From a virus: a stretch of 64,000 bases of DNA. Shown one piece after another: positions 8,601-44,271 of the stretch. The DNA lies in the IMG/VR virus record IMGVR_UViG_3300042561_001378, positions 14,144 through 78,143 of that record; one strand, written 5' to 3'. Each line of letters opens with the position of its first letter. Position 1 is the stretch's first letter. Under the pieces are notes generated by a model that did no database searches, was not told where the DNA came from, and saw nothing but the letters and a program-made list of their open reading frames with translations. The translations under genes were made by a program, and so were the position numbers.

Positions 8601-9431
8601 TTCGAGGATGACCTGGCTGCTCGTCGCACTGCCGCTGAACGCCAGTTTGCTCTAGACGAAGCTGGGTCACTAGACGAGCGGAACAAGCTAGTCGAGGGCT
8701 TTGCCGCCGAAGATCGCAAGGCTGCGGTACTGGCCCCCTTTGAGCAAGAACAGCGCGACTTTGAGGCACAGCAACTAGAAGAACGCCGCATCTTTGAAGA
8801 ACAGCAACGCGCCCTTGATGCCGAAGCTGAAGAACTTAAGCGCCAGTCTGAGCTAGAAATCAACGCCCTCAACCTTGATGCCAAAAATCAAGAGATTGCC
8901 CTAGAGCGTGACTTCCAAAACAATGAACGCACCCTTGAGCGCCAAGCCAAAGAACAGGAGCGGGCTAGGGAGGCATCTTTTAACGCCACCGAGCGCAGGC
9001 TAGATGAAGAATCTGCCCGCAGGATTGAGGCACTCAAGTCCGGCAACGACGCCGCCGCCGTCACTGCCTTCCGTCGGGGTGGCACCTTCGCCGCTGGCCA
9101 AAACATTCTCGCGGGTGAGGCTGGCCCAGAGCTACTCAAGGTCGGCGGTAAGCAAGCCCTGGTCACCGAACCCAGCCTCATGCGCTTCGACTCCCCTGGC
9201 CGCGTCACCAGCGCACCCTCCACCCGGCGTAAACTATCCCAGGGGCAACTGAGTAGGGCCGGGGCTGGGGGTGAGCTCAAGGCCATGCGGAAGGCCCTGG
9301 AGCGATCGCTAGCTAGACCCCCCGCCGACATCAACACCACTGTGCAGGTGCAAGGGCTCAGTGCTGACCAGGTACGGCGGCAATTGGCCATGCACCAGTC
9401 AGACCTATACCGCAGCCTAGGGGGCCTCTGA
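5682..9431 (+). CDS. tail tape measure protein (TP901-like core)
   Basis: 1249 aa; MADLGELVLRLRVDSS N-terminus; TP901-type core; hydrophobic segments; coiled-coil C-terminus; AGEAGPEL motif. Confidence 0.9.
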   Translation: MADLGELVLRLRVDSSQYTRDLLRARAQAAALKDIRVGLRLDNSQYTRDLLKARTQAQSLKDIRVGLQLDSSQYTRDLLSARAQAEALKDIRVNLRAEGLGGVDAGLQRVGAGTRDVRTSFSVLQGAIQGAAQAITQSLIQIGGSLLKLPLNIVGGSLNSFAGLETELVKLGALSTLGREGIQPIADEIQRLGQVSTKTQVEVAQAANTLSTLGVSPDEIQKRLPGIVALSEATGAGLVEAAKLSTSAATIFGFSSDEIADRLASLAIDSAADVGDVQQLLQQTSGIFNQLGDSADPDELLAFFATLRDADISADVGATGLASVIETLVDPKKADELKELGVSAFDAEGNFLGFETVLRQLAATQKTLNPKDFTGKLIGTFGAGGIEAIAGGLGGLDTSFNKVFNGLKNSAGKTDVITEELQKGLPAAIEQFGGSLDTLDVAFGASIASIQEGLLRLGTTLLNTLSESDIFEQLTTASNGFFEALSSNEGFVAELGKTLVATLGSVLNAIASVVTRITNEFVANPEEILARVQGFVTQAGVVITNAILGAGAAFQFIVQNFDAIVAGVQALGVVIAAAIAGNVIAGVVSFGTTLVTIATTIIPLVSGAFTALSGIVSGLLLAFKAGGIAGVVSSLGATFSLFAASLAPLLPIIAAVAGAIALIVVAFKALRSERGQEILGAIGAKATELFDSFRNSEPVKAFLNLLDSIRDLGVALIPVIKNVAGEIIRLTGVGIENIKSAFASTGISVNDIYKTLLLINPIAAGTIALAKTLLSIVTDILNKTATVIDNLTAAISGPKKFEVSGADERADTIREQGVNQLTVAEKTAAAAKPDADKPDADKAAADKAAADKAAADKAAADKAAADKAAANKAAANKAAADALAAAEKKAEDDKNARQTAFDNARIARDIAAEDAKLARQRAFDDTKRANAIALEVEIERRKIATEQAIEDIKEEGRIREEAFNKKQNEDKLAFEDDLAARRTAAERQFALDEAGSLDERNKLVEGFAAEDRKAAVLAPFEQEQRDFEAQQLEERRIFEEQQRALDAEAEELKRQSELEINALNLDAKNQEIALERDFQNNERTLERQAKEQERAREASFNATERRLDEESARRIEALKSGNDAAAVTAFRRGGTFAAGQNILAGEAGPELLKVGGKQALVTEPSLMRFDSPGRVTSAPSTRRKLSQGQLSRAGAGGELKAMRKALERSLARPPADINTTVQVQGLSADQVRRQLAMHQSDLYRSLGGL
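5721..5960 (+). repeat. about 3 x 84-bp tandem repeat (DSSQYTRDLLxARxQAxxLKDIRVGLxL) in the tape measure N-terminus
   Basis: gacagtagtcagtacacccg-like units start at 5721, 5805 and 5889. Confidence 0.9.
8164..8325 (+). repeat. 15-bp coding VNTR (gctgctgccgataaa; KAAAD) in the tape measure
   Basis: About 10 tandem KPDAD/KAAAD/KAAAN units. Confidence 0.9.
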
Positions 9432-9907
9432 TGTCCAACAAATTCACGCTGATTCTTGCAGGGCAGACGAGCATTGTCCTTACCCATTCCGCCGGTCAAC
9501 TGTTTGCCCCCGCGCAGCTAGGGTTCACCAGCGTGGGCGACACCAATCTTCGAGGCATCTCACTGGTCGGCGCTACCCCGGTTCAACCCCTCGACCTGGT
9601 TTTCGACGCGGCCTTGACCAATGCGCAATTCTGCACCTTCCAGCAGTTTGCGTACCAGCAGGAGGTGGGGGGCCAGAAGGGGGATATCGTGCTTAGGAAT
9701 GAATGGTATCGAATCAACGCCAACTGGGCTGCTGTCAATAACCGATCGACCGTGGGCAGCGCTGTCACCACCGCTGGCATATCTCAGAGTTACGTCCAGT
9801 ATCCTGTGCTTCTGCTATTGCCAGAGGATTGGTTTGAGCCCCTGGGCCAGAACAGCGGGGGGCAGTGGTGGTCGGTGAAGTTTACGGCGAAGGAGCTGAC
9901 GGCTTAG
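9431..9907 (+). CDS. putative distal tail protein
   Basis: Immediately follows the tape measure (TGATG overlap); C-terminal WSVKFTAKE. Confidence 0.5.
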   Translation: MSNKFTLILAGQTSIVLTHSAGQLFAPAQLGFTSVGDTNLRGISLVGATPVQPLDLVFDAALTNAQFCTFQQFAYQQEVGGQKGDIVLRNEWYRINANWAAVNNRSTVGSAVTTAGISQSYVQYPVLLLLPEDWFEPLGQNSGGQWWSVKFTAKELTA

Positions 9908-10108
9908 CTTCCCATTCATCGGGCATGGGGTGAGGGGCTATGGGAGAGGCGGCAACAATCGCGGTAGTACCACGGTTGAAAAATGCTGTAAAGTAGGGGT
10001 GGATTCCGTTGCAAGATTCCCCCCTACTTATGGTGCCTGTGCACATCTCTACTTTAAGGGATGTGCTTGGTAGCTAGGAAGGGATTGTCCTCTTACCACA
10101 GCAAAACC

Positions 10109-10723
10109 ATGAAAACTGCCCAAGTTAAAATCACAGGCCAAGCACCCTACACTCAGTCTCGGTTCCACGGTGAAGCCAAGCTACCCCGTGAAGGTAGCGA
10201 AGATTACGAAAACCGGACATGGCCAGGGAAGGCCCACCTGAATGAGGCTGAACAGGTCACGATACCTGCGCTGGCTTTCAAAAAGTGCCTTGCAGAAGCT
10301 GCAAAGTATCTATCTGAACAGATCCCAGGCAAGGGCAAGGCCACCTATACCAAGCACTTCCAGAGCGGGGTGATCGTGCTGACTGATAGCGTTGTCTCTT
10401 ACAAGGGCCAGCCGGTCACCAAAGCCTTGCTTGACGTTCCCAAAAGCGGATATTACGGAAACAGAATGTTTGTCCCCTCTGACGGGGTGGCAGGTTCTGG
10501 TAAACGGGTGTTTCGCACATTCCCGACCGTTGCTGACGGCTGGGAATGTGTTGTTGAATTCTTGATTATGGATGACATCATTACCCAGCCTGTCTTCCAG
10601 AAACACCTAACAATGGCTGGGATGTTGATTGGAGTCGGTGCCTTCCGGGTTCGTAATGGCGGGGTGATGGGCCGGTTTAAGTCTGAAATTCTGAGTTGGA
10701 CAGAAGACAAAGAGGTAGCATGA
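10109..10723 (+). CDS. solo RAMP/Cas7-like RNA-binding protein (Vipr-like candidate)
   Basis: 204 aa. N-terminal strand KITGQAPYTQSR, IPALAFKKCL (RAMP IPxxxxKxxL helix), RTFP...WECVVEF, and C-terminal Gly-rich loop AGMLIGVGAFRVRNGGVMGRF. Confidence 0.7.
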   Translation: MKTAQVKITGQAPYTQSRFHGEAKLPREGSEDYENRTWPGKAHLNEAEQVTIPALAFKKCLAEAAKYLSEQIPGKGKATYTKHFQSGVIVLTDSVVSYKGQPVTKALLDVPKSGYYGNRMFVPSDGVAGSGKRVFRTFPTVADGWECVVEFLIMDDIITQPVFQKHLTMAGMLIGVGAFRVRNGGVMGRFKSEILSWTEDKEVA

Positions 10724-11244
10724 TGGACGTTTTGACAGACAGCACCCCCGCCTTTGTGGGGAAACGCTCAATCTACACCCAGCTATTGATCCAGGCCATG
10801 CGGGATGTACCAGACGGGGAAACCTTCACCTACACCCAAGCCATGACCATCACTGGACTGAGTGCAACCAAGACAAAAACCTATCTCCTTTCAGCGATCC
10901 AGTCGCTGTTGAGAGATTACGGCATTGTCTATAACTGTTGCCGAAACGTGGGATATACCCGCTTAACGCCTGAAGAAGTGCCCACTGTAGCGAACACCAA
11001 AAACCTCACCAAGATGAGGGGAACCACTGGACGTTACAGGGATACCCTTGAAGCTGTAGACCCTGGCACCCTATCCCAAGAGGCCCAGACTAAGCACACC
11101 CTGGGAATGCTCAATGTCCACCTTATGGAGGGCGTCATTAGCCGCAAATCCCAGCGGGCGATTGGGAAACAGGTAGTGCAGTCAAAACCTGAACTGCCAG
11201 ACAGAGACAGGATGATCGCCCTGTATAAAGGGCTGTTCTCCTAG
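10720..11244 (+). CDS. accessory protein of the RAMP-array locus (possible winged-HTH)
   Basis: ATGA overlap with the RAMP gene and GAGG RBS; the array starts right after its stop codon. Confidence 0.6.
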   Translation: MMDVLTDSTPAFVGKRSIYTQLLIQAMRDVPDGETFTYTQAMTITGLSATKTKTYLLSAIQSLLRDYGIVYNCCRNVGYTRLTPEEVPTVANTKNLTKMRGTTGRYRDTLEAVDPGTLSQEAQTKHTLGMLNVHLMEGVISRKSQRAIGKQVVQSKPELPDRDRMIALYKGLFS

Positions 11245-11353
11245 GGGCAGATCAACTCAACTCATCTCGCATCTTCTCGTCTCCCCTCGACTCCTCTCAT
11301 CTCTTCTCTCCTCTCCTCTGCTCGACTCTACTCCACTCTTCTCGACTCAACCG

Positions 11354-12760
11354 AACCCCGTCAGCGATGGCGGGGTTTCTCATGGGCGGGGGTGGGGGTA
11401 TAATGAGGGGCAGATCAACTCGCATCGACTCTGCTCCCCTCATCTCAACTCGCCTCGCCTCGTCTCATCTCATCTCGACTCTTCTCGTCTCGCCTCAGCT
11501 CAGCACAAGGCAACTCAACCGAACCCCGTCAGCGATGGCGGGGTTTCTCATTGCGGGGGTATGGCATAATGGGGGGACAGCTCATCTCCACTCAACTCAC
11601 CTCCTCTTAACTCGGCTCTTCTCGTCTCCGCTCTCCTCGTCTCCTCTCGACTCTTCTCGTCTCGCCTCAGCTCAGCACAAGGCGGCTCAACCAAACCCCG
11701 CCAGCGATGGCGGGGTTTCTCATTGCGGGGGTATGGCATAATGGGGGGACAACTCAACTCTCCTCTCCTCCACTCGGCTCTGCTCCCCTCGCCTCTTCTC
11801 GACTCGACTCAACCGAACCCCGTCAGCGATGGCGGGGTTTCTCATGGCGGGGGGTGTGGCATAATGAGGGGACAACTCGTCTCAACTCCTCTCACCTCGG
11901 CTCGCATCTGCTCGTCTCTACTCATCTCTTCTCCCCTCATCTCGGCTCATCTCGACTCGACTCAACTCAGCTCATCTCTTCTCGTCTCGCCTCAGCTCAG
12001 CACAAGGCAGCTCAACCAAACCCCGTCAGCGATGGCGGGGTTTCTCATTACAGGGGTATGGCATAATGGGGGGACATCTCAGCTCCGCTCATCTCCCCTC
12101 GACTCATCTCGTCTCGACTCGTTTCCTCTCCCCTCGACTCGACTCGACCAAACCCCGTCATTGCTGGCGGGGTTTCTCATTGCGGGGGTATGGCATAATG
12201 GGGGGACAACTCGCCTCGGATCGCCTCACCTCGGCTCAACTCGGCTCGTCTCAACTCCCCTCGACTCGACTCAACCGAACCCCGTCAGCGATGGCGGGGT
12301 TTCTCATGGCAGGGGTGTGGCATAATGGGGGGACAGCTCAGCTCATCTCAACTCCCCTCGCCTCTACTCACCTCGACTCACATCTGCTCGGCTCATCTCG
12401 TCTCGCCTCAGCTCAGCACAAGGCAGCTCAACCAAACCCCGTCAGCGATGGCGGGGTTTCTCATGGGCAGGGTATGGCATAATGAGGGGACATCTCAGCT
12501 CCGCTCGGCTCTGCTCTGCTCGGCTCGCCTCGGCTCATCTCGCCTCACCTCGCCTCTGCTCATCTCGACTCAACCGAACCCCGTCAGCAATGGCGGGGTT
12601 TCTCGTGGGCGGGGTATGGCATAATGGGGGGACAGCTCATCTCGACTCGTCTCGGCTCAGCTCGTCTCCACTCGACTCCGCTCGCCTCCTCTCGACTCAT
12701 CTCGACTCCTCTCCGCTCTTCTCGACTCAACCAAACCCCGTCAGTGATGGCGGGGTTTCT
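11354..12760 (+). terminator. ten repeated intrinsic terminator-like hairpins
   Basis: ccccg(t/c)ca-loop-tggcgggg followed by tttct; loops are GCGA, GCAA or GTGA (GNRA), with TTGC once. Confidence 0.7.
11399..12625 (+). promoter_or_regulatory. nine repeated -10 promoter elements, one before each of units 2-10
   Basis: TATAAT at 11399; TGgCATAAT (extended -10) with CATAAT at 11565, 11737, 11860, 12062, 12194, 12321, 12478 and 12620. Confidence 0.65.
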
Positions 12761-12988
12761 CATTGCGCCACTGCCACACCACCCCAGGCCGTCGCGGGCT
12801 TTCCCCTGTCCCCAGATCCAGCACCTCGACCTCGACCCCGCCCGACCTCAGCACTACAGCATCGACACACCACCGCCCCACCAGCAGGCTCATCCCCGGT
12901 GGGTACAGATAAACCCAGGGGCACCATACCGCCAGCCCCCAGCGATCGCACCGCAGTCCCCATCGTTCGGCCTGGCCCTTTTCCATAC

Positions 12989-13210
12989 TCATCCCTCGTC
13001 CATCCACAGCACCCCCACCCACGGGGTATTAATCTCAGCCTCGCGCCGTACCCAGTCCAGCGCCACACAGGGCCGCGCATCCTCGCCCCACCACTGACAC
13101 ACCGGGCGAAACGTGATCGACACATCGCCAAACTGCCAGCAGTCCGCCACCTTTACCCCGCAAGTGTAGTAGCGGAGCCAGGGGTAAAAAGTTCGCAGTA
13201 GGGGTGACAT
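12989..13210 (-). CDS. hypothetical protein
   Basis: 73-aa Trp-rich ORF converging on the array. Confidence 0.3.
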   Translation of the reverse strand: MSPLLRTFYPWLRYYTCGVKVADCWQFGDVSITFRPVCQWWGEDARPCVALDWVRREAEINTPWVGVLWMDEG

Positions 13211-13263
13211 GGCGTGGGGCTTGTAGGGCTACCGTGATTCTACCGCAGGCCACCCGGTCGCAA

Positions 13264-13397
13264 CCCTGTACAGGGTGTGCAGGCCATGCAGGCCTCCGTT
13301 GAAATTATTTTGCTGTGTGTGCGGCGGAATTTTTTCGGAAACACACAGCACTTTCACGCTAGAAACCGGGGGTGTTTGCCCTACACGGCCTGCACAG
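13264..13397 (-). repeat. about 130-bp element, inverted copy (other copies at 43834-43964 and 47428-47561)
   Basis: Reverse complement matches tgtgcagg...ttctagcg...aaaaaattccgccgcacacac...aaataatttcaacggaggcctgcatggcctgcacacc. Confidence 0.85.
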
Positions 13398-13704
13398 CCC
13401 TAGTGCGATCGCCCTAAAACCCCTGTTCTCTCGTTGCGGCCCATCATTCCCGGCGCATCAGTACAGGAGGTACAGGGCACTATTCCCCAACCTTTTCTTA
13501 TATACTTTTACTGTGCATAGACAGCACAAAACAGACCACGTTGCCGGGGTCTTTTTGAAATTGTAGCACCTTGCACGGCCCTGAACCATGACCCTAGACC
13601 CCGGCGATCGCTGTTACTACTGCACCGGCAAAACCCTGGACCCTGCCGTTGTGGTGGGGTGCCCCATGGACGTGCTGGTGTTGCGGGTAGATTGGGGCGA
13701 TCGC

Positions 13705-14275
13705 TGCACCGACATGGGCCTAGAGTGGGCACCGGGTAGCGAGGAGTGGGACAGGATTGCGCCGCCGTTCTGAGGCGGGGCAGAGTGTTAGGCCGCTAAT
13801 CCTGACCAGCCCGGTAAAATAAAAAAGCCGTTTGCTAGGTGGCATGATGCCTGAAAATAATTTGTTGGTAAAAACCGATGGCGGCTGGGTGTGGGCCGAC
13901 AACCCTTTAGCGACTCAGGCCAGGAAAGAATTTGAGACTTCCGTGTTTGCTCTAGATAACGAGAACACGTCTAAGGTACTCGCGGAGATGCTGGTTGCGG
14001 CGATCGGGGCTGGTGCCGTGGGGGAAGATTTTCAGGATCTGATAATAAAAGTGGTCACCGGGGCCATTACCAAGATCCAAGAAGATGCCCGGAGTGCCTG
14101 GGCATTTGTTCACGAGAATACTGGCCTTGATTCTCTTGACGAGACGGATCTTACATACAACTGGCCAAAGGGCGAGTTTTCCCTAGCTGAGCCTGTGACT
14201 GAAAATGCACCGACCTGGGCCTAGAGTGGGCACCGGGTAGCGAGGAGTGGGACAGGATTGTACCGCCGTTCTGAG
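13705..14275 (+). repeat. 70-bp direct repeat pair (13705-13774 and 14206-14275) flanking one gene
   Basis: tgcaccgac.tgggcctagagtgggcaccgggtagcgaggagtgggacaggattg..ccgccgttctgag, 3 mismatches. Confidence 0.9.
13844..14224 (+). CDS. hypothetical protein between direct repeats
   Basis: Acidic ORF of about 126 aa. Confidence 0.5.
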   Translation: MMPENNLLVKTDGGWVWADNPLATQARKEFETSVFALDNENTSKVLAEMLVAAIGAGAVGEDFQDLIIKVVTGAITKIQEDARSAWAFVHENTGLDSLDETDLTYNWPKGEFSLAEPVTENAPTWA

Positions 14276-14451
14276 TGGTGAAAAGGCGCGACCTGGGCCA
14301 TAGCAATTCGCCAGAGGTCTTCCCGTCCACGCCAACTGTACCGGGGTTGTGATTGACAAGGCCATGGTTGGCAGCCCTACCCTGCGGTATTACAAAGGCT
14401 ATGGCCCAGGTCGCCCTGCCATTCTACCAAGCGACCCTCCAGCAGTTAGGG

Positions 14452-14481
14452 TTGACAGTCACGAAAGGTGTTTGTTATAGT
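14452..14481 (+). promoter_or_regulatory. conserved moron promoter, copy 1
   Basis: TTGACA-gtcacgaaaggtgtttgt-TATAGT. Confidence 0.8.
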
Positions 14482-14610
14482 GATTGTATCCGCAACTGAG
14501 GACGCCCACCGATGACTGCCCAATGGGCAAGTACAGCATGGCCCGGTTATCCGCGCCGCCTAGCCCCACCCGCCCATCCCTGATGGGCTATCCACCACTG
14601 AACAACCGCC

Positions 14611-15315
14611 ATGAAAATCTATCAATCAAATGTTTCAAAGTTGGTCGAGTCACTTACGCCCGCCCAAGTTTTAGCCCTAGGCGGGGTGCTCTTAGAGCAT
14701 CCTGAATTACTATCAAGCGCTTTGACTCAGGCATACACAGCCATGCCTGAGTCAAAGCAGATTGAAGCCCGTCAACAAATGAACAGGCTATTTTGTGACC
14801 GCATCGAATAATGACCGCCGCGCCAAGTTCATATCACCGCAACCGAGACTAACCATGCAATACCCTGAATCGCCCGAGTGGCAGGCCCTAGCGCTTGCCT
14901 TTGAAGAGTGTATGCAGCTAGAAGGGCAGGGCCTCCCAATGGCTGCTCATATCCAACGGCTCAGGGCAGCGAGTGAGGCCAACACCACCCACTGGGGTGA
15001 TCAATGGCAAAAACACAATGCCATCCGCAACTACCTGAAATCGTGGGACGTTACCCTATGACCACCTACATCCTTGAGCGTGGCAGCTACCAGGCCGCGT
15101 CCCTGGGCTACTCCTACGCCCGTCGGGCTCAGTCCGTGGCTCAGACGCTGCGGTGGCACCAGGTAGCCATCATTGACGCGGAGAACATCACTGAGGCCGT
15201 AGAAGAAGCTACCCTGGCGATCGCTCAATGGAGCGGCCAGGGCTTTACCGGGCCACGTTGGCGGGTGGAGGGCCGTGGCGCTGCAATCCACGAAAACCAA
15301 GAAATATACCCATGA
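14611..15315 (+). CDS. three small hypothetical moron genes (14611..14811, 14795..15061, 15058..15315)
   Basis: Overlapping short ORFs downstream of the promoter. Confidence 0.45.
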
Positions 15316-27487: not shown

Positions 27488-27670
27488 TTAGCTCCTGAAC
27501 CGGTCAATGTTTCGGAACGATCGGCCTGTAGCTGGGTCGATTCTACGCGCTGCCGCCGTTTGTGCCCTACGGCCCGCCGCTGTTGATGTGATAGTTTCTC
27601 TGGCACTACCGCCACCGCTGCCTCTTCTCCCGCCGCCGCTTCTACCGCCGCCTCCGCCGCCTCCAGCCAT
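27488..27670 (-). CDS. small Gly/Arg-rich peptide
   Basis: MAGGGGGGGRSGGGRRGSGGGS..., starting just after the radical SAM stop codon. Confidence 0.55.
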   Translation of the reverse strand: MAGGGGGGGRSGGGRRGSGGGSARETITSTAAGRRAQTAAARRIDPATGRSFRNIDRFRS

Positions 27671-27672
27671 GA

Positions 27673-28902
27673 TCATAAGTCCTTTACGATTTTGTTCCAT
27701 TCTAAGCTAGGGTTCCCATTCCAGACCAGCACCGGATACCCATTCTCGTCTACCCAGTCCTCACCCTCTGGCGTTACCGCATACTGTAGTCCAAGGTTGC
27801 GACCGGGGCTAAACTTTATCCGTGAATCTTGCCATGCCATTCTCAGGATATCGGCGTAGGTTTTCTTATGATCCCACTTCTCCCCGTCCTCATTAGCGAT
27901 CGTCATGCATAGGTTGTAGTTCGTGCTGCAAATATAGTGCCCAGTTTGGTGCGCGCCGGCTGGCATACTAGGCGATAGCCAGTCTACAAAGTCGTCAACG
28001 GTCAGGATAGCCCCAGGCTCAAGGTAGTCGCAACAGGCATTAACAAAATCCTGCATGGTGGGAAATGTTTTTTCGTAGCATTCATGAAATGGAGCAAAAA
28101 AGTCTGAGCGTCGGCATTGATTCATCACGAACGGGTTAAGGCCACGCTCGCAGGCTTCGTCAGCTACCCAGTTCACGTAATCTACATCGGTCGGGTCTGC
28201 CTTTTTGCCAGAGGCCCGCTTGATGAGTTTGGGGTCTAGGGCTTCTATTTCCTTGGGCTTTAGCTTGCGGGTTTGGTTGCTGTTGAGGTGTAGTTCTTGC
28301 AGCCAAACACCATGCACGCCAGCGGCCTTAAGCCGGTCTAGCTGGGCCTCCTCATCCTTGCACCATTCAGGAACGCATGGGTTCCAACCCACCACCACCT
28401 GATGGCCCTTGCTGCGGAGTAGGGCGATTAGTTCAAGCCGCTCAGTGATGCTGGGAGCCCCAGGGGCGATCTTTTTCACCAATTCGTCTTGATCGCTCTC
28501 GATGGTGATGTAGAAAACGGTGGGGGTTTTCAGTAAGTCAAGGGCTTTATCAATGCCCCGCCCGCCCTTAGTCTGGATAGCCACGGGTACCCCTAGCTCA
28601 CACATCACCTCGAGTACTGGCAAGAATTGGCGATAGTTGCTGACAGCGAAGGGGTCTACCCGATTGCTCACTAACACGGGGTAACCCTGTTGCAGCAACG
28701 TGGCGGTTAAGGTAGATCGCTCCCGGTACGTGGCCAGCATATTCATGGTGGCGGGGATGTCTGCGCGGCGATTGCGCTTGTTGAGGTTTGCGAAACAGTA
28801 GGCACAGGCGGCGGAGCAATAGTTAAAACTCAGCTCTAAAGGGATTGGTGAGACTAGAAACTCACCATAGAAGGGGGTGAATGTATCGCCAGTTTGGGCC
28901 AT
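27673..28902 (-). CDS. radical SAM protein (spore photoproduct lyase-like fold)
   Basis: CSAACAYC (CxxxCxxC), SNRVDPF, IQTKG. Confidence 0.85.
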   Translation of the reverse strand: MAQTGDTFTPFYGEFLVSPIPLELSFNYCSAACAYCFANLNKRNRRADIPATMNMLATYRERSTLTATLLQQGYPVLVSNRVDPFAVSNYRQFLPVLEVMCELGVPVAIQTKGGRGIDKALDLLKTPTVFYITIESDQDELVKKIAPGAPSITERLELIALLRSKGHQVVVGWNPCVPEWCKDEEAQLDRLKAAGVHGVWLQELHLNSNQTRKLKPKEIEALDPKLIKRASGKKADPTDVDYVNWVADEACERGLNPFVMNQCRRSDFFAPFHECYEKTFPTMQDFVNACCDYLEPGAILTVDDFVDWLSPSMPAGAHQTGHYICSTNYNLCMTIANEDGEKWDHKKTYADILRMAWQDSRIKFSPGRNLGLQYAVTPEGEDWVDENGYPVLVWNGNPSLEWNKIVKDL

Positions 28903-29513
28903 TACACCTCACCCCGCATAAGCTTAAGAAATGCCGCCTTGTCAGAACCTGCCCCGATTGATTCTTTAATGATATTCCACTCTTTGATCTCGCTGCTACT
29001 GAGCACGATCGCCAGTGGAGTCCCACCCTCGCTGATGGCAAAAACATCCTCATCGTCCGGGGTGAATCGGGATGTAGATGTATCGGCATCTACGCCCCAC
29101 CCCTCGATCTCATCCGACGTGAACCATGGCGTCAGGTCAAGTTCTTCGCCAATTTCAGCCAGGGCATCGGTATCCCAATCGCTCAAATCAGACGCCCGGT
29201 TATCGGCGATCGCATAGCTCTTCCAGTCCTTCTCATCCAGGTCATCGGCCACCACTACCACCAGCTCATCGGCGCGGCGTTCGATGATTCGCACTTTGTC
29301 AATACCAATCTGCCCAGCCTCCTCCAGGGTGCCGTTGCCTGCCCGGACGATGATCCGCCCATCGGGTAGGCGCTGACCTACCAGGCTCCGCAATGGGCCA
29401 AACTTTTGCAGCGACTCCTTAATCATGTAACTGCTGCGCTCAGTCCGTACCCTGGCGTTTTGCGGGTCAAACTCTACTGCGGAGATGGGGAGAACATTGT
29501 CAGAGTCAGCCAT
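28902..29513 (-). CDS. ParB/Srx-like N-terminal domain protein
   Basis: DPQNAR...SLQKFG...AGNGTLEEA...YAIADNRASDLSDWD. Confidence 0.85.
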   Translation of the reverse strand: MADSDNVLPISAVEFDPQNARVRTERSSYMIKESLQKFGPLRSLVGQRLPDGRIIVRAGNGTLEEAGQIGIDKVRIIERRADELVVVVADDLDEKDWKSYAIADNRASDLSDWDTDALAEIGEELDLTPWFTSDEIEGWGVDADTSTSRFTPDDEDVFAISEGGTPLAIVLSSSEIKEWNIIKESIGAGSDKAAFLKLMRGEV

Positions 29514-41992: not shown

Positions 41993-44271
41993 GCCGCCTA
42001 GCCCAGATCGCTGATACTGACCTTGATGCCCTGCTATACGACATCCGCACAGCTACCAAAATTTACGACAAACGAGACTTTAATAAAAAAGTAGTGGGCA
42101 AGGCTGAGCAAAAAATGCTCAAACTGGTTCAGGCCGTCGCCGTCAAAGAACGCCAGGACATTGAAGACGAAGACCGCTACACCCTGCCCAGCGGTATCAC
42201 TATTGAGCAGCACCTATTTAACTTGACATTTTGCGACAAAGAACGGCCCATCAAGGTGATTGACCACGCCTTTAGGCAGTACGACCCAGAGTATGGGTAC
42301 TGGGCCAGCATTCCAGACGAAGAACTAGAACAGCGGGTGCTCCAAAACGCTGAGCTATCCCATTACCCACCGACCAAGACCGGGCCAGGGCGATCGCTGG
42401 CAACGGCGGCGAATGTGGAAAAGGCGATGAAGTTTGCGGGTAAGAAGTTATTCGCTTCGACCCACAAGACCAACAGCAAACACCTGATCGCATTTCGGAA
42501 CTATACCGTTTGCACCAAGACAGGCGACACCAGAGACCACAATCCTGATTACCACATCACCACATGCCTACCCTATGACTATGCCCCTGGGGCTGCCTGC
42601 CCCCCGGCGATGCTGGGCTACATTGCCAGTAGCTTTGGTGACTCCCAGGTTGAATACGTCCGGGCTGCGCTAGGGCTGATCCTCGACCTGACGGCCCCTG
42701 ACCGGTTTATCCATCTAACGGGTTCAAGTGGTTCTGGCAAGGGGGTTTTTACCCGGCTGATTATGAAGTTCTTTGGGTCTGAGTCGGTAGGTTCACCCAA
42801 CAATTTCAAGATTTTTGCCAACCCCGACCAGGTGCACCAATACCTATCCGGGAAAAGACTACTGGCCATTGATGACATCGTAGGGTTTATTGGTGAAGAG
42901 ATTGGCCGGTTTTACACCGCCGTCGAGCGCACCGCGATGAATGCCCGGTGTTTATTCCAACCCAAGGGCTATACCCAGCAGTTTGATTGCCGGTATACCG
43001 TGGCTAGCGTGGGTCAGCTATCGGCCAAATACAGCAACTCTAAAGGCTGGGAACGGCGGGTTTTCCCATTGCCGACGGTTAGGGCATCCAGGCAAGAGGA
43101 GGACGAACGGCTAGAAATTGAACTAGAGAACTGCATAGCCGACATCGTGAGCTGGGCTTTGGGTCAGGATAAATCCCTGAGAAACGATATCCTACGCCAC
43201 CCCGCCAAATACAATCCCGCCGCCGCCGAGTACTTCAGAGATGCCGCATTCAGCAGCAGCAGCGCCTGGGCCTTTATTGACGAATGCCTAGAGCCTAGAA
43301 TCCCCAGCGTTACCGATGCCTTTGACGACCAGGGCGTCAACGAGACTGAACTTTACCTGGCCTACAAGGCCTATACCGCTGCCGTGGGTAAGCCGCCGAT
43401 GAGCCGTGATGGGTTTGTCCATGAGCTGCGCCAGGTGCTGCCCCTGAACTGGGTCGATCGCCGGTCGGGTGGCAAGGTCAAGCGGCGGTTTGTTTATATC
43501 CGATTGCGCCCTGCCTTTGAGTTTGGTGAGTTTGGGGCGACCTGCAACATGGAGGCCCGAGGTTATGACGGGGTGCTCCAGTTTAGGGAATGGTCAGCCA
43601 AGTATGGGTTTATGCATCCATACGACCCCGGTGATCTTCTTGAGCTTCTTTATGGTTGCCGCCTCAAGTGGAATGATCACCCACGCCCATGGATAGCTGA
43701 GTCAAACGATGGTGAATCGCTAGTGTGCATCCATTCAGATGATGAAATTGGCTCAAGGCTATTCGCCGAAGTCCCAGCATCCGAGCTAAGTCGATGGCCA
43801 AACGACCCACCTCAGCCACCCCCATCAGAGCCTTGTGCAGACCATGCAGGGCAAACAGGCCTGCTTTCTAGCGTAGAACCCGTGTGTGTTTCCGAAAAAA
43901 TTCCGCCGCACACACAGCCAAATAATTTCAACGAAGGCCTGCATGGCCTGCACACCCCGCACAGCACAGACCCAGAGCCCGTTAGCCCGTCACAAGGTTG
44001 TTTTGATGGCGATGGGCAAGTGGTGACGCCATGGCTTACCCCTGGCAAACCAGCGTGGTGGACGGATTTTGAGCAGCGATTGATCGAGGCCACCACCTGG
44101 GAGCAATTGCAGCAGGCTAAGACCAAGACCTCAGCGAGCAGGCGCAGCCAGATTATGAACACCTGGGACAGGGATGGGCGCTACGAATGGCTCAAGGGCA
44201 AGGCCGCACGGTTAGAGACTGAGGCTCAGGGCCAGCAACAGCAGGGGCTCAACGTGGGGGGTATGGAATGA
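41989..44271 (+). CDS. D5/P4-family primase-associated SF3 helicase
   Basis: D5_N-like IAFRNY...HNPDYHIT; GSSGSGKG; AIDD; WERRV. Confidence 0.85.
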   Translation: MSRLAQIADTDLDALLYDIRTATKIYDKRDFNKKVVGKAEQKMLKLVQAVAVKERQDIEDEDRYTLPSGITIEQHLFNLTFCDKERPIKVIDHAFRQYDPEYGYWASIPDEELEQRVLQNAELSHYPPTKTGPGRSLATAANVEKAMKFAGKKLFASTHKTNSKHLIAFRNYTVCTKTGDTRDHNPDYHITTCLPYDYAPGAACPPAMLGYIASSFGDSQVEYVRAALGLILDLTAPDRFIHLTGSSGSGKGVFTRLIMKFFGSESVGSPNNFKIFANPDQVHQYLSGKRLLAIDDIVGFIGEEIGRFYTAVERTAMNARCLFQPKGYTQQFDCRYTVASVGQLSAKYSNSKGWERRVFPLPTVRASRQEEDERLEIELENCIADIVSWALGQDKSLRNDILRHPAKYNPAAAEYFRDAAFSSSSAWAFIDECLEPRIPSVTDAFDDQGVNETELYLAYKAYTAAVGKPPMSRDGFVHELRQVLPLNWVDRRSGGKVKRRFVYIRLRPAFEFGEFGATCNMEARGYDGVLQFREWSAKYGFMHPYDPGDLLELLYGCRLKWNDHPRPWIAESNDGESLVCIHSDDEIGSRLFAEVPASELSRWPNDPPQPPPSEPCADHAGQTGLLSSVEPVCVSEKIPPHTQPNNFNEGLHGLHTPHSTDPEPVSPSQGCFDGDGQVVTPWLTPGKPAWWTDFEQRLIEATTWEQLQQAKTKTSASRRSQIMNTWDRDGRYEWLKGKAARLETEAQGQQQQGLNVGGME
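43834..43964 (+). repeat. about 130-bp ori-like element inside the helicase CDS
   Basis: Homologous to 47428-47561 and to the inverted copy at 13264-13397. Confidence 0.8.

What the first reader, a model, noticed from the sequence alone, without database searches (positions are those of the whole stretch)
11354..12760. Each array unit is its own mini-gene; hairpin variation fixes the transcribed strand
Seen: the linker is a terminator hairpin followed by an extended -10 (TGgCATAAT, once TATAAT) and then GGGGGGAC. Hairpin loops vary among GCGA, GCAA and GTGA, which are all GNRA (one TTGC exception). One stem position is T:G in most copies and C:G in unit 3, which pairs only on the + strand. 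Inference: guides are made by individual promoters and terminators, so no Cas6-like processing is needed. Unit 1 has no promoter of its own and would be co-transcribed with the protein genes.
Basis: partly seen in the sequence, partly recalled or inferred. Interest (0 to 1): 0.75.

Follow-up and report, generated by a model that had tools for sequence, protein, structure and literature searches.

The report
Cyanophage VIPR array of guide mini-genes
A lake cyanophage carries a VIPR system, a CRISPR-related RNA-guided DNA silencer first described in 2026. Its ten guide RNAs use CUC-NN instead of GGY-NN five-base repeats, and each seems to have its own promoter and terminator, which is a plausible but untested detail of how such guides are made.

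Summary
Ten units at 11245-12762 each end in the hairpin CCCCGYCA-NNNN-TGGCGGGG followed by TTTCTC. Nine linkers carry TG-G-CATAAT (once TATAAT) followed by a G run.

The locus is a known kind of system, VIPR (bioRxiv 10.64898/2026.04.26.720920). This scan has met VIPR before on other DNA (136 notes).
- The gene at 10109-10723 is a Vipr protein. Its family profile hits PDB 36pp "SUSP1 Vipr protein" (E 1e-9), and its model matches Cas7/Csm3.
- The gene at 10720-11244 resembles Vap1.
- The units are vrRNAs whose fixed triplet is CUC, not GGY.

The plus strand is settled. The arrays lie on the vipr strand in six further CTC-type loci, and the fixed triplet ends in a pyrimidine, as in published vrRNAs.

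The mini-gene reading has sequence support only. In other CTC-type phages with unrelated linkers, a TANNNT box ends exactly 10 nt before the first CUC in 7 of 14 units (0.15 expected). Unrelated hairpins with T runs follow the units there. No RNA data exist, the U tract is short, and unit 1 has no such promoter, so read-through plus processing remains possible. No guide targets were found. Verdict: a new variant of a known kind, of modest interest.

The parts
10109..10723 (+). vipr: Cas7-like RAMP protein, 204 aa (the ORF list starts it at 10061; relatives align from the ATG at 10109)
   Evidence: A profile of 45 relatives hits PDB 36pp_D 'SUSP1 Vipr protein', E 1.1e-9. Pairwise identity to phiSUSP1 Vipr is 26%, E 9e-7. 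The AF2 model has pLDDT 91. Foldseek top hits are type VII Cas7 and Csm3, E about 3e-8. G-loop motif GVGAFRVRNGGVMGRF.
10720..11244 (+). vap: accessory protein, 174 aa, with an ATGA overlap with the vipr stop codon
   Evidence: phrog_5926. 27% identity over 70 aa to phiSUSP1 Vap1, E 2e-4. A homolog lies downstream of vipr in 45 of 57 related loci. The AF2 model has pLDDT 90. It gives only weak matches (E 0.03-0.3), all to winged-helix DNA-binding domains.
11245..11381 (+). vrRNA unit 1: 19 pentamers (11256-11350), hairpin core 11356-11375, TTTCTC to 11381; no CATAAT module upstream
   Evidence: It starts 1 nt after the vap stop codon and shares GGGGCAGATCAA with the start of unit 2. A TATAAA lies at 11224-11229.
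11411..11549 (+). vrRNA unit 2: -10 TATAAT 11399-11404, 20 pentamers from 11419, long tail class (CACAA GGCAA), hairpin core 11524-11543
11577..11721 (+). vrRNA unit 3: TG-G-CATAAT 11562-11570, predicted +1 A at 11577, 22 pentamers from 11581, long tail class, hairpin core 11696-11715 (the C:G variant)
11749..11843 (+). vrRNA unit 4: CATAAT 11737-11742, predicted +1 at 11749, 12 pentamers, hairpin core 11818-11837
   Evidence: The predicted fold is an unstructured body plus an 11-bp terminal hairpin.
11872..12046 (+). vrRNA unit 5: CATAAT 11860-11865, predicted +1 at 11872, 28 pentamers, long tail class, hairpin core 12021-12040
12074..12178 (+). vrRNA unit 6: CATAAT 12062-12067, predicted +1 at 12074, 14 pentamers, hairpin core 12153-12172 (loop TTGC)
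12206..12305 (+). vrRNA unit 7: CATAAT 12194-12199, predicted +1 at 12206, 13 pentamers, hairpin core 12280-12299
12333..12462 (+). vrRNA unit 8: CATAAT 12321-12326, predicted +1 at 12333, 19 pentamers, long tail class, hairpin core 12437-12456
12490..12604 (+). vrRNA unit 9: CATAAT 12478-12483, predicted +1 at 12490, 16 pentamers, hairpin core 12579-12598 (loop GCAA)
12632..12761 (+). vrRNA unit 10: CATAAT 12620-12625, predicted +1 at 12632, 19 pentamers, hairpin core 12736-12755 (loop GTGA). Repeat homology ends after TTTCTCATTGC and no promoter module follows.

Best explanation
The stretch is the guide array of a phage VIPR system. It has three parts: vipr (10109-10723), vap (10720-11244), and ten vrRNA genes on the plus strand.

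Each vrRNA is a run of 12-28 pentamers with a fixed CUC and a variable NN. It ends in the constant pentamers CUC-GA CUC-AA, then CCRAA, a 9-11 bp hairpin and UUUCUCAU.

By analogy with the solved SUSP1 complex (inferred, not shown here), one Vipr protomer binds each pentamer and buries the fixed triplet. The NN pairs are then presented to read double-stranded DNA two bases out of every three.

For units 2-10 the most likely biogenesis is autonomous. A -35-less promoter (TG-n-CATAAT plus a G-rich discriminator) would start the RNA at the A seven bases downstream, giving 5'-ACAN directly before the first CUC. The hairpin and U tract would end the transcript and stay on as its 3' cap. No Cas6-like cut would then be needed.

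Unit 1 would come from read-through of the vipr-vap message or from a weaker start inside the end of vap. Some read-through between units is likely, because the U tract is short.
For: Identity as VIPR:
- The Vipr profile hits PDB 36pp 'SUSP1 Vipr protein' at E 1.1e-9, and identity to phiSUSP1 Vipr is 26%.
- The protein has a Cas7/Csm3 fold.
- The partner gene resembles Vap1.
- Strict five-base phasing runs from the leader to the hairpin.
- 43 of 57 related vipr loci carry (XYZNN)n runs beside the gene.
- The papers were read.

Strand:
- CTC arrays lie on the vipr strand in L133, L102, L196, L139, L129 and L206.
- The hairpin is about 5 kcal/mol more stable on the plus strand, and its loops are GNRA there.

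Promoter:
- The -10 box is invariant while the spacer before it varies.
- It ends 10 nt before the first CUC in eight linkers and 14 nt before it in one.
- In six other CTC-type contigs with unrelated linkers, 8 of 14 units have a TANNNT ending 8-12 nt upstream (0.76 expected, p 1.6e-7). Seven are at exactly 10 nt (p 6e-11).
- From my own knowledge of bacterial promoters, not tested here: TG-n, a -10 box and a GGGA-type discriminator are the elements that allow -35-independent initiation.

Terminator:
- All ten units have a -15 to -18 kcal/mol hairpin followed by TTTCTC.
- Non-homologous hairpins with T runs follow the units in L139, L196, L133 and L206.
- Changes are concentrated in the loop (5 in 40 cells) rather than the stem (1 in 180, and that one preserves the pair).

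Module borders: the last unit keeps the terminator but has no promoter after it, and the first unit lacks the promoter.
Against: - There are no transcript data of any kind.
- The U tract has only three consecutive U. Once the stem extends to 11 bp, the generic terminator scan no longer calls it.
- There is no -35 element, and the promoter scan flagged only the first linker.
- Within the array there is no compensatory base change.
- The nine linkers are paralogous copies, so their agreement counts as one observation. Some linkers in the comparison loci are paralogs too, so the p-values are optimistic.
- Unit 1 lacks the promoter module.
- Many clade members have 23-50 nt linkers with no -10 box or hairpin. 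The literature describes staggered and ribozyme-cut arrays, so processing of long precursors does occur in this family.
- No natural target was found for any guide, so guide function is inferred from homology.
Confidence: 0.62

Rival explanations
1. The array is read as one long precursor. Transcription starts at the vipr-vap promoter, runs through the array, and host RNases cut the RNA into units. The hairpins serve as 3' stabilisers or Vipr filament caps, and the CATAAT boxes are weak or incidental.
For: - Unit 1 abuts the vap stop codon and has no CATAAT module.
- The U tract is short.
- Other clade members have short linkers without a -10 box or hairpin.
- The discovery paper reports staggered and hammerhead-cut arrays, and it describes a conserved structured tail as a cap.
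Against: - The -10 box is invariant while the neighbouring spacer varies.
- TANNNT boxes sit at the same 10-nt distance in unrelated linkers of other CTC-type phages.
- The predicted +1 leaves a uniform four-base ACAY leader.
- Nine strong hairpins with U runs would have to be read through.
Confidence: 0.28
2. The hairpin is only the vrRNA tail. It would be a handle or cap that stops the Vipr filament, like the SUSP1 pseudoknot. It would not be a transcription terminator, and the 3' ends would be made in some other way.
For: - Published vrRNAs carry a conserved structured 3' tail that caps the filament.
- The motif GGTTCTCAT after the last pentamer recurs in a GGC-type relative that has no hairpin (L017). 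TTTCTCAT may therefore be a tail motif of the clade rather than a terminator U tract.
Against: - The hairpin is GC-rich, is followed at once by U residues, and is replaced by unrelated hairpins with T runs in other CTC-type phages.
- The two roles do not exclude each other.
- In phiSUSP1, tails 2 and 3 are also followed by T5.
Confidence: 0.07
3. The periodic repeats act on the minus strand as GAG-NN RNA that binds a TRAP-like ring protein. Alternatively, they act as DNA, or they encode small proteins.
For: - GAGNN repeats are the TRAP binding pattern (my own knowledge).
- The plus strand has no stop codons, so long ORFs appear there.
Against: - No TRAP family match in the phage genome.
- The minus-strand hairpin has a C-A mismatch in nine of ten copies.
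- The ORFs start at inconsistent places and run across several units. NNCTC cannot form a stop codon in any plus-strand frame.
- Vipr homology explains the repeats.
Confidence: 0.02

Closest known systems
Type II VIPR systems of Escherichia phage SUSP1 and a Pseudomonas fulva prophage (bioRxiv 10.64898/2026.04.26.720920 and 10.64898/2026.04.26.720927)
   Same: - Phage-borne locus with the gene order vipr, then a vap1-like gene, then a downstream array of roughly 100-nt RNAs.
- RAMP fold with a G-loop.
- Pentamers made of a fixed triplet that ends in a pyrimidine plus a variable NN.
- A constant structured 3' tail.
- No self-targets.
   Different: - The fixed triplet is CUC, not GGY.
- Units have 12-28 pentamers rather than 9-16.
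- The tail is a simple GNRA hairpin with a U run, not a pseudoknot.
- There is no vrRNA upstream of vipr.
- Each unit carries a recognisable extended -10 box. The VIPR papers held here say nothing about promoters or terminators ('terminator' occurs 0 times).
- The host is a cyanobacterium.
VIPR-like clusters with non-canonical fixed triplets (bioRxiv 10.64898/2026.10.21.760802)
   Same: A period of 5, fixed triplets other than GGY (GAC, CAC, WGT and TGH are named), and a Vipr-fold protein next to the array.
   Different: CUC is not named in the text I could read, and the figures are not held. That paper does not discuss array transcription.
Type II-C CRISPR arrays with a promoter inside each repeat (Neisseria; my own knowledge, not checked here)
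   Same: Guide 5' ends are set by transcription initiation inside the array, not by a Cas6-type cut.
   Different: Those are CRISPR repeats with contiguous spacers. They need tracrRNA and RNase III for the 3' ends and use Cas9 as effector. They have no per-unit terminator.
NsiR1 tandem small-RNA gene array of Nostoc (my own knowledge, not checked here)
   Same: A cyanobacterial tandem array in which every repeat has its own promoter and terminator.
   Different: It is a regulatory sRNA with near-identical copies. It has no pentamer code and no RAMP protein.

Membership tests
VIPR system | Vipr protein: a minimal RAMP with an RRM core, G-loop and thumb, related to characterised Vipr | tested here: met
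   Profile against PDB 36pp_D 'SUSP1 Vipr protein', E 1.1e-9. 26% identity over the full length to phiSUSP1 Vipr. AF2 pLDDT 91. Foldseek hits to Cas7/Csm3, probability 1.00. G-loop aligned.
VIPR system | Minimal locus of vipr plus a vap gene, with no CRISPR array or cas operon beside it | tested here: met
   Only vipr and vap lie between the tail genes and the array. vap is similar to SUSP1 Vap1 and is conserved in 45 of 57 loci. Rfam finds nothing. The rest of the genome was not searched for cas genes.
VIPR system | vrRNA built of tandem pentamers, each a fixed triplet plus a hypervariable NN | tested here: met
   Ten units of 12-28 in-phase pentamers, with all 16 possible NN dinucleotides used.
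VIPR system | Canonical fixed triplet GGY (or the published variants NNNGG, YNNNG, NNNNG) | tested here: not met
   The triplet is CUC and contains no G. Only the pyrimidine at position 3 is shared. The Vipr clade around it uses GGC, CGC, GAC, CAC, GTT, AGT, ATT and CTC.
VIPR system | Invariable structured 3' tail after the repeat tract | tested here: met
   CTCAA-CCRAA-hairpin-TTTCTCAT is nearly invariant in all ten units. It is a hairpin, not a pseudoknot.
VIPR system | NN dinucleotides match natural DNA targets with a one-base skip | tested here: inconclusive
   No match above scrambled controls was found in the phage's own genome, the sister phages, 401 cyanobacterial genomes, or exact-window scans of viral and metagenome contigs. 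NN composition fits codon positions 1-2 slightly better than the alternatives.
VIPR system | vrRNAs are expressed and bound by Vipr | not testable with these tools
   No run recorded as RNA holds the stretch.
Intrinsic (Rho-independent) terminator | GC-rich stem-loop followed directly by a U tract | tested here: inconclusive
   The stem is 9-11 bp at -15 to -18 kcal/mol. The tract is UUUCUCAU, with only three consecutive U, and the generic scan did not call it.
Sigma-70-type promoter | -10 hexamer with A at position 2 and T at position 6, plus a TG extension or a -35 hexamer | tested here: met
   TG-G-CATAAT in eight linkers and TATAAT in one. No usable -35 element: the scan accepted only the first linker.
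CRISPR array | Identical direct repeats that separate contiguous unique spacers, processed by Cas6 or RNase III | tested here: not met
   The variable parts are pentamer-phased rather than contiguous spacers. No cas genes lie at the locus.
TRAP-binding RNA | GAG/UAG triplets with 2-nt spacers, bound by an mtrB-type protein | tested here: not met
   No PF02081 match in the genome. The GAG reading is on the strand opposite to vipr.

The most novel reading that the evidence does not exclude
In this cyanophage lineage every VIPR guide would be a primary transcript. It would start with a triphosphate four bases before the first CUC. It would end at an intrinsic terminator that doubles as the filament cap. 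The whole system (Vipr, Vap, guides) would then need no RNA-processing activity, and each guide's dose would be set by its own promoter. The pyrimidine-only CUC triplet would make the pair orthogonal to GGY-type Vipr. It would also make it immune to hijack by foreign solo vrRNAs. That could explain why the fixed triplet switches so often on the Vipr tree.
Probability: 0.4. Interest if true: 0.5.

Novelty: new variant of a known kind. Interest (0 to 1): 0.38.

Why it matters
VIPR was described only in 2026, and the preprints held here do not say how vrRNAs in arrays get their ends.
- **Guide biogenesis.** If each guide is an autonomous promoter-to-terminator gene, this is the simplest known way to make a guide RNA. 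It needs no nuclease, ribozyme or tracrRNA. That matters for moving such systems into other hosts and for reading guide arrays from sequence alone.
- **Recognition range.** A working CUC-NN system would widen the range of fixed triplets that a Vipr fold can hold. It would also offer pairs orthogonal to GGY systems.
- **Ecology.** It places VIPR in freshwater cyanophages, at a cargo hotspot where sister phages carry other payloads.

None of this changes the basic picture of VIPR. It is an added example with two unusual details.

Tried and rejected
- **TRAP idea.** The minus strand reads GAGNN, like TRAP sites. There is no PF02081 match in the genome and the strand evidence is against it, so I dropped it.
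- **Mini-ORFs.** The plus-strand ORFs over the array start at inconsistent places, some in the hairpin loop ATG and some in the -10 ATG. They span several units. They exist only because NNCTC cannot encode a stop codon.
- **Rfam.** No match at E <= 1 over 9000-15000.
- **RNA evidence.** No RNA holder was listed for the stretch. Only DNA contigs could be laid.
- **Hairpin pattern in viral contigs.** There were two hits (L009, L010). Both are an unrelated terminator after an IS200-like gene, not VIPR.
- **Guide targets under the one-base-skip rule.** Nothing rose above scrambled controls in any of these searches:
  - own genome, skips 0-3;
  - sister phages G402, G403 and G404;
  - 401 cyanobacterial genomes, unit 10, up to 3 mismatches;
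  - exact windows of units 10 and 3 in viral contigs (the single hit failed on extension, 24 of 44);
  - exact windows of units 1 and 10 in metagenome contigs (the best of 102 hits was 27 of 38, as chance gives).
  Only a few windows of four guides were tried and mismatches could not be allowed in the big scans, so this is a weak negative.
- **G-loop specificity code.** Residues at the SUSP1 D177/W178 positions do not sort by triplet.
- **Phage isolates.** tblastn of Vipr finds only Pseudomonas phage LESphi2, at 25% identity. I did not follow it up.

Full report
**What is in the sequence.**
Between 11245 and 12762 the plus strand holds ten tandem units. Each unit is a run of 12-28 pentamers of the form CTCNN in one unbroken five-base register. 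A few pentamers are degenerate (ATCTT, CTTAA, TTCCT). Six units end in the short tail CTCGA CTCAA CCRAA. Four units (2, 3, 5, 8) end in a longer shared tail, CTCGT CTCGC CTCAG CTCAG CACAA GGCRR CTCAA CCRAA.

After the tail comes the hairpin CCCCGYCA-NNNN-TGGCGGGG and then TTTCTC. Nine linkers follow with a variable 10-12 nt spacer, TG-G-CATAAT (TATAAT in the first linker), G(G/A)GGGGACA, and the next run of CTCNN. Contigs from four lake metagenomes contain the unit bodies letter for letter. They break at the linkers, so unit order and number rest on the original assembly.

**What it is.**
The record is a 78-kb virus genome with terminal repeats. It encodes a tail tube and tape measure upstream of the array and a capsid protein, portal and terminase downstream on the other strand. 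It carries 50 copies of the cyanobacterial HIP1 octamer where about one is expected. It occurs in lake-water metagenomes.

The two genes before the array have many phage relatives. In 43 of 57 related loci, pentamer-periodic runs flank the first gene, and the fixed triplet differs between lineages: GGC, CGC, GAC, CAC, GTT, AGT, ATT and CTC.

A literature search identified this as VIPR, Viral Interference Programmable Repeat. In VIPR a minimal RAMP protein, Vipr, polymerises along a vrRNA built of GGY/NN pentamers. It hides the fixed triplet and uses the NN pairs to read double-stranded DNA with one base skipped in every three. The outcome is silencing of rival mobile elements (10.64898/2026.04.26.720920; structures in 10.64898/2026.04.26.720927).

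I tested membership directly:
- A profile of the protein family hits the PDB chain named 'SUSP1 Vipr protein' at E 1.1e-9.
- The window protein is 26% identical to the phiSUSP1 protein over its full length.
- Its AlphaFold model (pLDDT 91) matches Cas7 of type VII and Csm3 of type III-A systems.
- The second gene resembles SUSP1 Vap1 and follows vipr in 45 of 57 loci. Its model gives only weak matches, all to winged-helix domains.

The locus is therefore a VIPR system with ten vrRNAs. This scan has met VIPR many times on other DNA. Notes on this same stretch had already proposed a RAMP plus CTC-NN system.

**How it differs from described VIPR.**
The fixed triplet is CUC, which contains no G. 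It does not fit GGY or the published variants NNNGG, YNNNG and NNNNG. A later preprint names GAC, CAC, WGT and TGH variants (10.64898/2026.10.21.760802). CUC is not named in the text I could read.

Five more viral contigs and a Microcoleus MAG contig carry CTC-type arrays next to vipr homologs on the same strand. On a Vipr tree the triplet labels cluster, but they change often: 28 changes on 58 tips, with CTC in two or three places. Read on the vipr strand, nearly all triplets end in a pyrimidine. This agrees with the purine-excluding pocket for position 3 in the SUSP1 structure.

**The strand.**
Eight of the nine stem pairs never vary and there is no compensatory change, so that argument is thin on its own. 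The conclusion is nevertheless right:
- The arrays share the strand of vipr and vap in every CTC-type locus.
- The pyrimidine-ending triplet matches published vrRNA polarity.
- The hairpin is about 5 kcal/mol more stable on the plus strand and has GNRA loops there.
- A predicted plus-strand unit folds as an open body with one terminal hairpin, whereas the minus strand folds no better than shuffled sequence.

**The mini-gene claim.**
Evidence inside the array is limited because the nine linkers are copies of one another. Even so, the spacer in front of the -10 box varies while positions 2-6 of the box never do. Substitutions in the hairpin fall in the loop and not the stem. The last unit keeps the hairpin and TTTCTCATTGC but has no promoter module after it, and the first unit lacks the promoter module.

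The stronger evidence is comparative. In the other CTC-type contigs the linker sequences are unrelated to the window's. Even so, 8 of 14 units there have a TANNNT box ending 8-12 nt before the first CTC (0.76 expected, p 1.6e-7). Seven of these are at exactly 10 nt, the same distance as in the window. A start seven bases after the box gives the same four-base leader, ACAY, in several lineages. The units in L139, L196, L133 and L206 are followed by hairpins of quite different sequence, several built on HIP1, each followed by T runs.

TG-n, a -10 box and a G-rich discriminator are the elements that let a promoter work without a -35 hexamer. That statement is my own knowledge and was not tested here.

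I therefore rate one promoter and one terminator per unit as the best reading, at about 0.6.

**What speaks against it.**
- There is no transcript evidence.
- The U tract is short and interrupted, and the generic scan did not call the hairpins.
- Unit 1 starts one base after the vap stop codon and has no CATAAT module. Its only candidate box is a TATAAA 26 nt before its first CTC.
- Many relatives in the same Vipr clade have linkers of 23-50 nt with a T-rich run directly after the last pentamer and no hairpin or -10 box.
- The discovery paper describes staggered and ribozyme-cut arrays.

Processing of long precursors therefore exists in the family, and read-through plus processing may contribute here too. 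The hairpin may also serve mainly as the 3' cap, as the SUSP1 pseudoknot does. The two roles are compatible. In phiSUSP1 itself the tails of vrRNA2 and vrRNA3 are followed by T5, and each vrRNA is preceded by a conserved element of about 35 nt. The three VIPR preprints do not mention terminators or native vrRNA promoters.

**Guide function.**
I found no natural target in the phage's own genome, three sister phages, 401 cyanobacterial genomes, or the few exact windows I could scan in viral and metagenome collections. The absence of self-targets agrees with the paper. NN composition fits codon positions 1-2 in the sense orientation a little better than the other models tried (3.92 against 4.00 bits per NN). 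Guide function therefore rests on homology, not on an identified target.

**Context.**
Two sister phages (capsid protein 96-98% identical) have the same flanks but different cargo in place of the VIPR cassette. One carries a TnpB-like gene plus a Dam-type methylase, and the other a 692-aa protein of no known family. The VIPR locus is thus an exchangeable cassette at the junction of the converging tail and head modules.

**Verdict.**
The system is a known kind (VIPR) in a non-canonical form: a CUC triplet and a hairpin tail. The one-promoter-one-terminator architecture is well motivated by sequence comparison but is not shown. Interest is modest.

Noticed in passing
window 9908-12989; L229 (G402:39700-43400); L230 (G403:1-4300): The VIPR cassette sits in a cargo hotspot. 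Sister phages keep both flanks at 88-94% identity. In its place G403 carries a TnpB-like gene (IS605 OrfB/Cas12f) plus a D12-class adenine methylase, and G402 carries a 692-aa protein with no Pfam match.
   Followed up: partly
loci L011-L083, L102, L129, L133, L139, L196: Within one Vipr clade the fixed triplet of the flanking arrays switches often (GGC, CGC, GAC, CAC, GTT, AGT, ATT, CTC; 28 changes on a 58-tip tree). It nearly always ends in a pyrimidine. G-loop residues at the SUSP1 D177/W178 positions do not sort by triplet, so the specificity determinants lie elsewhere.
   Followed up: partly
L050:4040-4542, L017:6600-7945, L067:4847-5114, L063:6583-6802: In many relatives the vrRNAs end in XYZAA-XYZAA followed directly by a T-rich run (for example CGTTTCTTTTGG, GGTTCTCAT, GCCTTTTTTGGG). 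The linkers are only 23-50 nt and have no hairpin or -10 box. How those 3' and 5' ends are made is unclear.
   Followed up: no
window 13232-13400: A repeat of about 135 nt starts just past the array. Its depth in metagenome contigs is about six times that of the flanks, and the sister genome G402 holds five copies (29694, 43186-43319, 43347, 74579, 76121). It may be the reused promoter element that another first-stage note describes.
   Followed up: no
L205 (KT454805 26000-31000), minus strand 27500-28030 and 29062-29510: In phiSUSP1 each experimentally known vrRNA is preceded by a conserved element of about 35 nt (AAGAGTCTTCTAAGAGGGTTTTTAAGTGATG or a variant). Tails 2 and 3 are followed by T5, so per-unit start and stop signals may exist there too. 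A strong TTGACA-17-TATACT promoter lies about 85 nt before vrRNA1.
   Followed up: no
window 12989-13210, minus strand: A 73-aa tryptophan-rich ORF converges on the end of the array. Its DNA is conserved in both sister phages, and it has no Pfam match.
   Followed up: partly
whole record G000: The genome has 50 copies of the HIP1 octamer GCGATCGC where about one is expected. The tail genes are on the plus strand and the head genes on the minus strand, converging on the VIPR cassette. The closest genomic Vipr (58% identity) is on a Microcoleus MAG contig, which points to a filamentous cyanobacterial host range for this lineage.
   Followed up: partly
OQ594955.1 4897-5475 (Pseudomonas phage vB_Pae_LESphi2): This is the only isolated phage in the phage collection with a tblastn match to the window Vipr (25% identity, annotated as hypothetical). 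It may be a VIPR carrier in a clinical Pseudomonas prophage.
   Followed up: no
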